Assembly: GCF_009914755.1 (NCBI RefSeq)
Contig: NC_060930.1
Reading direction: 5' to 3' (one strand)
Length of the DNA stretch: 64,000 bases
DNA from: the human T2T-CHM13v2.0 reference genome, Homo sapiens
Each line of letters starts with the position of its first letter. Position 1 is the stretch's first letter. Both the position numbers and the translations under genes were made by a program. This document shows, one piece after another, positions 49,944 to 50,474 of this stretch. Under the pieces are notes generated by a model that worked only from the letters and a program-made list of their open reading frames with translations, did not search any database and had not been told where the DNA came from.

Positions 49944-50141
49944 AGGAAAAAGGCCACAAGAGGGGCTGCCATGGCCACTAACGGAGATGGCCCTGGTAGA
50001 GACCTTTGGGGGTCTGGGACCTCTGGAGTCCCCATGCTCTAACTCCCACACTCTGCTATCAGAAACTGAAACTTGAGGGTTTTCTCTGTTTTTCACTCGC
50101 AATAAATTCAGAGCAAACAAAAGATGTGGAATCTGAGAGAT

Positions 50142-50474
50142 TTATTCCACTAGTGTGCTAGGACCATTAAAAAGACAAGGGCGCCCCCTTCCGGCAGAGG
50201 CTGACCACTCCAGCAGAAACTGCGGACAGGCTTTCATCCCCGGCAGAGCTACAGGCTTCCAGCAGCCTGGGGCCTCGTGGGTACTGAGCTGCGTGTGGGG
50301 GTCCAGGACCCGACGTCGCCTGCCATTCGGCCAGGGCATCGGCAGATGTATTGGTCCAGCCCCCGAGAGACCCAGGAAGAAGGCAAGGAGGTTCGGTACG
50401 AGCGATCTCGAATGGAAGAAGAAGGCAGTCCGTCTGCGGGAGCCAGGCCGCAGCGCCATCCACCTTCTGTCCAT
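50142..50474 (-). pseudogene. PRAC2: PRAC2-like open reading frame copy (110 aa from MDRRW; 134 aa from the upstream start at 50546)
   Basis: [70 protein letters not shown]...LLEW closely matches the 90-aa human PRAC2 as I recall it; no stop after LLEW. This is a paralogous copy, not the parent gene. Confidence 0.78.

What the first reader, a model, noticed from the sequence alone, without database searches (positions are those of the whole stretch)
50090..50160. Captured segment reads through a poly(A) signal: template was nascent/read-through RNA or genomic DNA, not mRNA
AATAAA on plus (50101-50106; recalled as the HOXB13 mRNA end ...cgcaataaattcagagcaaac) is followed by 700 bp more of locus-like sequence, not by poly(A). 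A convergent AATAAA lies on minus 40 bp away. The insert is in the HOXB13-sense orientation, matching the L1 3' half, which fits reverse transcription of uncleaved pre-mRNA. HOXB13 is known mainly as a posterior-embryo/prostate/colorectal gene, so heritable capture would imply germline or early-embryo transcription, or a DNA-templated repair patch. The paired signals could also terminate transcripts crossing this site in either direction.
Basis: partly seen in the sequence, partly recalled or inferred. Interest (0 to 1): 0.7.

Follow-up and report, generated by a model that had tools for sequence, protein, structure and literature searches.

The report
Gene-end copy trapped inside inverted LINE-1
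An unspliced copy of the facing ends of two chromosome-17 genes (HOXB13 and PRAC2) sits at the internal joint of an old jumping-gene insertion on chromosome 6; it was likely captured from an unfinished RNA and shows no sign of function.

Summary
Both AATAAA motifs (50101-50106 on +, 50141-50146 on -) are present, and both are inherited from the donor. Window 49944-50811 is a single colinear copy of chr17:49587688-49588542, where HOXB13 and PRAC2 end tail to tail (828 of 876 aligned bases match). It lies exactly at the inversion junction of a twin-primed L1 bounded by one 17-nt target-site duplication. It runs 705 nt past the HOXB13-strand signal and 197 nt past the PRAC2-strand signal, and it keeps 241 nt of an inferred PRAC2 intron. 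The ordinary mature mRNAs are therefore excluded as template. Junction homology, the published bias towards secondary-cDNA switching and reported testis expression of PRAC2 modestly favour an uncleaved PRAC2-strand RNA (0.45) over HOXB13 read-through (0.2) or a DNA patch (0.25). No selection on the poly(A) pair or on the predicted ORF was seen. Verdict: a new, apparently undescribed germline example of a known kind of complex L1 insertion. The RefSeq 'putative PRAC2' model here is probably spurious.

The parts
49404..49420 (+). 5' copy of the 17-nt target-site duplication; the bottom-strand nick site reads TTTT/GG
   Evidence: (D11, 16 of 17 identical)
49421..49946 (-). Inverted L1 ORF2 segment (secondary, internally primed cDNA); no microhomology with the TSD
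49944..49946 (+). Left junction: 2-3 nt shared by L1 and donor, with weak upstream homeology in which the L1 version is kept
   Evidence: P about 0.03-0.09
49944..50811 (.). Captured segment, 868 nt, a colinear copy of 855 nt of chr17:49587688-49588542 (+ = HOXB13 sense, - = PRAC2/HOXB13-AS1 sense)
49944..50120 (+). Last ~175 nt of the HOXB13 3' UTR; in PRAC2 sense this is sequence beyond its poly(A) site (cleavage position inferred)
   Evidence: gene-end coordinate recalled
50101..50106 (+). AATAAA, copy of the inferred main HOXB13 poly(A) signal
50141..50146 (-). AATAAA, copy of the inferred PRAC2 poly(A) signal; same sense as the host lncRNA LINC02531
   Evidence: hub annotation
50125..50573 (-). 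Copy of the inferred PRAC2 last exon, with an intact splice acceptor at 50574/50573
   Evidence: (1 of 10 candidate acceptors gives the 140-aa ORF of PMC8293171; 38 of 40 upstream bases identical)
50142..50474 (-). 110-aa ORF of RefSeq model LOC124901495: the PRAC2 90-aa frame with TCA where chr17 has the stop; evolving near neutrality
   Evidence: 10 non-synonymous, 4 synonymous, pN/pS 0.85
50574..50811 (-). Copy of 241 nt of the inferred PRAC2 intron
50802..50811 (+). Right junction: 7-nt exact plus 3-nt homology to the L1 bases missing at the inversion point; the donor version is kept
   Evidence: P about 0.004
50812..51765 (+). Forward L1 3' arm (primary cDNA) with A-rich tail at 51752-51765
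51766..51781 (+). 11 unexplained nt plus a short A run between tail and TSD (possible mini 3' transduction; no source found)
51782..51798 (+). 3' copy of the target-site duplication

Best explanation
The segment is a copy of the HOXB13/PRAC2 gene ends lodged at the inversion junction of one twin-primed L1, likely made when the L1 reverse transcriptase jumped from its second cDNA onto an unspliced, uncleaved PRAC2-strand RNA in an ape germ cell. Steps: (1) L1 cut the site and primed twice (shown by the TSD, the tail and two opposite arms that are adjacent in L1 coordinates). (2) After about 525 nt the internally primed cDNA switched through 2-3 shared bases to an RNA extending about 180 nt past the PRAC2 cleavage site (inferred). 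(3) It copied 855 nt back into the intron (extent shown, RNA template inferred). (4) Its 3' end annealed to the end of the first cDNA through a 7+3-nt homology, which closed the insertion (homology shown, use inferred). The copy has since decayed like neutral sequence, apart from slower CpG loss. The poly(A) signals are passengers.
For: One TSD pair bounds all three pieces. The arms are 11 nt apart in L1 coordinates, with the insert exactly between them. Ages agree: non-CpG 32 of 795 between insert and donor, about 2.0% per lineage, against 36 of 1418 (2.5%) for the L1, P=0.47. The right junction carries a 7-nt exact match to the missing L1 bases (P about 0.004 against random donor 15-mers). 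At both junctions the left-hand sequence's version is kept, as continuous top-strand synthesis predicts. In tumours, switching of the internally primed cDNA outnumbers switching of the primary cDNA 20 to 3 (10.1101/2024.08.27.596794). Two-transcript insertions and extra cDNA at inversion junctions arise de novo (PMC11702581). PRAC2 is described as expressed in testis (PMC12181166), is among the top 100 genes down in germ-cell-less testis (PMC10406544) and is mainly nuclear in glioma cells (PMC6144250). Described DNA-templated inserts are typically under 250 bp and local; this one is 855 bp and from another chromosome.
Against: Nothing proves an RNA template: no splice junction, no A tail, no editing cluster (T>C 9, of which 3 are CpG decay, vs A>G 4). 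The donor also resembles L1 weakly downstream of the right breakpoint (P 0.04-0.06), which suits a switch of the first cDNA onto HOXB13-strand RNA, and the junction statistics were chosen after seeing the data. The 20:3 ratio concerns switches within one L1 RNA. The testis gene list also holds skin genes, so contamination could explain PRAC2 there. The testis statement in PMC12181166 is second-hand. Neither captured end lies at a natural RNA end.
Confidence: 0.45

Rival explanations
1. DNA-templated patch: one of the two cDNA ends captured or copied chr17 DNA (strand invasion, polymerase-theta-type joining or ORF2p copying DNA), so transcription and strand are irrelevant.
For: Fully colinear with genomic DNA and crosses both poly(A) signals. 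Homeology at both junctions. Genomic-DNA templated inserts occur with L1 (PMC11702581; 10.1101/2024.08.27.596794).
Against: The DNA-templated cases in those papers are short and near the insertion site, whereas this one is 855 bp and interchromosomal. The donor is a transcribed gene end.
Confidence: 0.25
2. One reading: the primary cDNA stopped just short of the second primer and jumped to uncleaved HOXB13 read-through RNA about 690 nt past its poly(A) site.
For: The insert is parallel to the forward arm. There is weak donor-L1 similarity downstream of the right breakpoint and a possible 3-nt terminal match.
Against: It leaves the 7-nt upstream match as coincidence (P about 0.004). In a panel of 12 non-prostate tissues HOXB13 was high only in prostate and low in colon (PMC2361840; testis was in the microarray panel). 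HOXB13 does not occur in the main text of the germ-cell-loss paper.
Confidence: 0.2
3. Mature long isoform: the template was a finished HOXB13 mRNA ending at the third AATAAA (chr17:49587643), or an unannotated intron-retaining PRAC2 RNA with a longer 3' end.
For: That AATAAA lies 45 nt beyond the captured end and would give an mRNA of roughly 3.8 kb. A Northern shows HOXB13 bands of 2 and 4 kb. A 1193-nt PRAC2 isoform is listed, and if unspliced it would include the intron part.
Against: The third signal has a poor downstream element (22% U, no GU). The 2:4 ratio also fits the proximal and main signals. An unspliced 1193-nt PRAC2 RNA ending at the usual site would still lack the last ~180 nt.
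Confidence: 0.07
4. The segment entered later, as a separate break-repair patch into an existing inverted L1.
For: The insert has lost fewer CpGs (6 of 29) than L1 relatives (44%, P=0.007), which could mean a younger age.
Against: It sits exactly at the inversion point of a 2.4-kb element. Non-CpG ages agree. It has no TSD of its own.
Confidence: 0.03

Closest known systems
Complex twin-primed insertions with template switching or extra cDNA at the inversion junction (Mendez-Dorantes et al., PMC11702581; 'twin priming and 5' switching', 10.1101/2024.08.27.596794)
   Same: Inverted L1 arms with a TSD, a third piece at the internal junction, microhomology at the joints
   Different: Those are de novo events in cell lines or tumours, and the named examples use the same RNA or mRNAs. 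This one is an old germline event in the reference and copies unspliced, uncleaved gene-end sequence from another chromosome.
L1-RNA chimeras (U6/L1, Alu/L1, 17 mRNA/L1; Law and Burns, PMC13174262)
   Same: A cellular sequence and L1 inside one TSD pair, inserted together
   Different: Their partners sit at the 5' end, mostly spliced first exons in sense. 5'-inverted L1s were excluded from that catalogue, and PRAC2/HOXB13 are absent from its text and 6 held supplement files.
Templated sequence insertion polymorphisms, class 2 (PMC5110952)
   Same: A distant, possibly intronic or intergenic template joined by microhomology, with no A tail of its own
   Different: Class 2 TSIPs patch a plain break without a TSD; here the patch is inside an L1 integration intermediate
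Processed pseudogene / L1 3' transduction
   Same: A gene-derived sequence moved by L1 machinery
   Different: No intron loss and no tail at the poly(A) site; not downstream of the L1 3' end; no L1 3'-part similarity in the 9.9 kb around the donor

Membership tests
Twin-primed (5'-inverted) L1 | One TSD of typical length around the whole element | tested here: met
   17 nt, 16 of 17 identical
Twin-primed (5'-inverted) L1 | Forward 3' arm with A tail plus an inverted arm adjacent in L1 coordinates | tested here: met
   11 L1 bases missing between the arms
Twin-primed (5'-inverted) L1 | Endonuclease site TTTT/AA | tested here: inconclusive
   Site reads TTTT/GG, a variant
Twin-primed (5'-inverted) L1 | Microhomology at the 5' junction (common, not obligatory: 71% have 2 nt or more in PMC11702581) | tested here: not met
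   0 nt
L1-RNA chimera by template switching | Co-insertion: one TSD pair and equal age | tested here: met
   orthologues could not be checked
L1-RNA chimera by template switching | Partner parallel to the cDNA that switched | tested here: inconclusive
   Parallel to either arm depending on the strand, and both strands are genes
L1-RNA chimera by template switching | Direct mark of an RNA template (splice junction, A tail, editing) | tested here: not met
   None seen; nascent RNA would leave none either
Processed pseudogene of PRAC2 or HOXB13 | Introns removed | tested here: not met
   241 nt of inferred PRAC2 intron kept
Processed pseudogene of PRAC2 or HOXB13 | A tail 10-30 nt after the poly(A) signal | tested here: not met
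   705 and 197 nt of genomic sequence follow
L1 3' transduction | Donor lies downstream of a source L1 and follows the L1 3' end | tested here: not met
   Internal position; no similarity to about 2.5 kb of L1 3' sequence in 9.9 kb of donor
Local DNA-templated insertion | Template under 250 bp and near the insertion site | tested here: not met
   855 bp, other chromosome
Functional bidirectional poly(A) site on chr6 | Cleavage used in vivo | not testable with these tools
   No 3'-end data available
Functional bidirectional poly(A) site on chr6 | Sequence constraint above background | tested here: not met
   3 of 71 vs 40 of 851 mismatches, P=0.57; low power

The most novel reading that the evidence does not exclude
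L1 reverse transcriptase captured a nascent, chromatin-stage RNA from another chromosome in an ape germ cell. In doing so it dropped a ready-made terminal exon (intact splice acceptor at 50573 plus poly(A) signal at 50141, in host sense) and a methylation-resistant CpG patch into the intron of LINC02531, where they are used today to end transcripts.
Probability: 0.1. Interest if true: 0.65.

Novelty: new member of a known kind. Interest (0 to 1): 0.38.

Why it matters
It is a clean germline fossil of a repair outcome so far described mostly in cell lines and tumours, and it falls in a class that a recent genome-wide catalogue left out by design (5'-inverted L1s). A scan of all inverted L1s for junction inserts could test whether L1 intermediates capture nascent RNA or DNA. 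In practical terms, it explains RefSeq model LOC124901495 as a probable artefact. It flags a ~95% identical paralogue that may confuse PRAC2/HOXB13 3'-end reads. It also preserves an independent copy of the ancestral PRAC2 exon.

Tried and rejected
Source L1 for the 11 nt behind the tail: two genome-wide pattern searches found only this locus. Donor as an old L1 remnant: only short chance-level hits, best E 0.24. Selection on the ORF: pN/pS 0.85; the first attempt was out of frame by one base and is discarded. Selection on the poly(A) pair: none. Rfam: no family in the insert; the two HOXB13-AS1 families lie upstream of the captured part on chr17. Strand from the substitution spectrum: 5 of 6 CpG decays are CG>CA, too few to use, and there is no outgroup. 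HOXB13 end coordinates in print: no paper. HOXB13 alternative polyadenylation or read-through: one unrelated review. (bacterial promoter scan of 11 bases) and PMC5732753 gave nothing. Primate orthologues, RNA atlases and methylomes were not available.

Full report
Observation. A genome search with 49940-50815 gave 2 matches of 2 candidates: the window itself and chr17:49587688-49588542 on the minus strand. The reverse search with 3.9 kb of the donor gave the same pair. The donor neighbourhood encodes the HOXB13 homeodomain on minus, about 2 kb from the captured part, and the two Rfam HOXB13-AS1 (PRAC2) regions on plus. The alignment has no intron-sized gap, and both AATAAA are present in the donor.

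Anatomy. The segment sits inside one L1 insertion. A 17-nt TSD (16 of 17 identical) bounds an inverted ORF2 arm (49421-49946), the insert, and a forward 3' arm with an A tail (50812-51765). I fetched the 24 closest L1 copies of 40 scored from 7793 candidates. In most of them the two arms are separated by 11 bases, in line with the short deletions typical of twin priming (PMC11702581; 10.1101/2021.12.20.472354). The insert occupies exactly that point. Non-CpG divergence is 32 of 795 between insert and donor (two lineages). For the L1 against its relatives' column majority it is 8 of 509 plus 28 of 909; 14 and 20 of 24 rows were kept, and rows under 85% identity were dropped. Per lineage these agree (P=0.47). 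From recalled diagnostic bases the element is L1PA3-like. With recalled primate divergences the event would fall some 12-20 million years ago; neither statement comes from a call.

What was copied. Of 10 candidate acceptors tested with each of 2 donors, only chr17:49587929 joined to the donor at 49587372 gives a 140-aa ORF, the size listed for PRAC2 in PMC8293171. The same exon fits the listed 560- and 518-nt isoforms and contains the position of a reported PRAC2 frameshift variant. The insert therefore holds, in PRAC2 sense, 241 nt of intron, the whole last exon and about 180 nt beyond the cleavage site. In HOXB13 sense it holds the last ~175 nt of 3' UTR and about 690 nt beyond. Either way a poly(A) signal is crossed. 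Two loopholes remain: a listed 1193-nt PRAC2 isoform may retain the intron, and a third minus-strand AATAAA with a poor downstream element lies 45 nt past the captured end.

Mechanism. A twin-primed element has two cDNAs pointing at each other, so an insert between them is parallel to one or the other whichever strand it came from. Both strands are genes here, so orientation is uninformative. At the right junction the donor's last 10 bases match the missing L1 bases (7 exact plus 3; P about 0.004 in 20,000 random donor 15-mers) and the donor version was kept. At the left junction 2-3 bases are shared, with weak upstream similarity (P 0.03-0.09), and the L1 version was kept. This fits one top strand made left to right (second cDNA, then PRAC2-strand template) and annealed to the first cDNA. 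Against it, the donor also resembles L1 downstream of the right breakpoint (P 0.04-0.06), and these tests are post hoc. In print, internally primed cDNA switched in 20 cases against 3 for the primary cDNA. PRAC2 is reported in testis (second-hand) and drops in germ-cell-less testis in a 5 vs 5 comparison whose list also holds skin genes. No feature proves RNA over DNA. My odds: PRAC2-strand nascent RNA 0.45, DNA patch 0.25, HOXB13 read-through 0.2, mature long isoform 0.07, later insertion 0.03.

Function today. The poly(A) stretch is not better conserved than the rest, and the ORF has pN/pS 0.85 with TCA where chr17 has the stop codon. PRAC2 itself is listed as a probable non-coding gene (PMC12462614). 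The RefSeq model lacks the first exons and runs into L1 at both ends, so it is probably a homology artefact (inference). Two points keep a functional reading open. First, acceptor and minus-strand signal are intact and in the sense of the host lncRNA LINC02531 (hub annotation). Second, CpG loss is slow: 6 of 29 decayed against 44% in L1 relatives (P=0.007) and 64% in the flanking L1 (P=0.035 on mean counts). That comparison used 14 of 24 relatives, one of which aligned badly, and the pairs are not independent. The 3 papers naming LINC02531 were seen as listings, one also as a passage, and say nothing on this.

Known and new. Extra pieces at inversion junctions, two-transcript insertions and distant templated patches are described (PMC11702581, 10.1101/2024.08.27.596794, PMC5110952). 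I found no description of this locus in ten searches. Most hits were seen as listings only, and one search listed 20 of 7,778 generic hits, none with PRAC2. The library lacks most subscription journals, and preprint supplements were closed, so a listing in a supplementary table or pseudogene database is possible. The catalogue of Law and Burns excluded 5'-inverted L1s.

What I saw of each paper. PMC13174262: abstract, passages, section 13, and a term search of 6 supplement files. PMC11702581: passages and section 7. 10.1101/2024.08.27.596794: passages and part 1 of 2 of section 4. PMC10406544: passage and section 15. Passages only: 10.1101/2021.12.20.472354, PMC2912911, PMC5110952, PMC6144250, PMC8293171, PMC12181166, PMC12462614, PMC2361840, PMC7154134, PMC5732753, 10.1101/2021.01.19.427265. 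Olsson 2003 (the PRAC2 discovery paper) was not seen.

Verdict. Real, well resolved in structure, ambiguous in template strand, probably inert. A new member of a known kind; interest 0.38.

Noticed in passing
window 45976-47101: A second 5'-inverted L1, on the minus strand, lies 2.3 kb upstream, with a perfect 17-nt TSD (45976-45992 / 47085-47101) and about 140 L1 bases missing at its junction.
   Followed up: partly
window 51766-51781: Eleven unexplained bases and a short A run separate the L1 tail from the TSD; possibly a mini 3' transduction whose source is lost.
   Followed up: partly
window 50481-50492: Twelve bases absent from chr17 are flanked by a 4-nt direct repeat, which suggests a deletion in the chr17 lineage with chr6 keeping the older state.
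   Followed up: no
window 50144-50243: 12 mismatches to the donor in 100 nt against 1-8 in the other bins, just behind the poly(A) pair.
   Followed up: no
L003 3761-3766 (chr17:49587760): A plus-strand AATAAA with a good downstream element in the PRAC2 intron of chr17 is not present in the chr6 copy.
   Followed up: no
L003 ~3964 (chr17:49587963): The longevity-associated PRAC2 'frameshift' rs199607933 (PMC12181166) appears to be an insertion in a G7 run within the duplicated exon, upstream of the 90-aa frame. A mapping or homopolymer artefact was not tested.
   Followed up: no
window 50160-50560: 401-nt CpG-rich core (GC 0.59, CpG o/e 0.72) in a window with o/e 0.19.
   Followed up: partly
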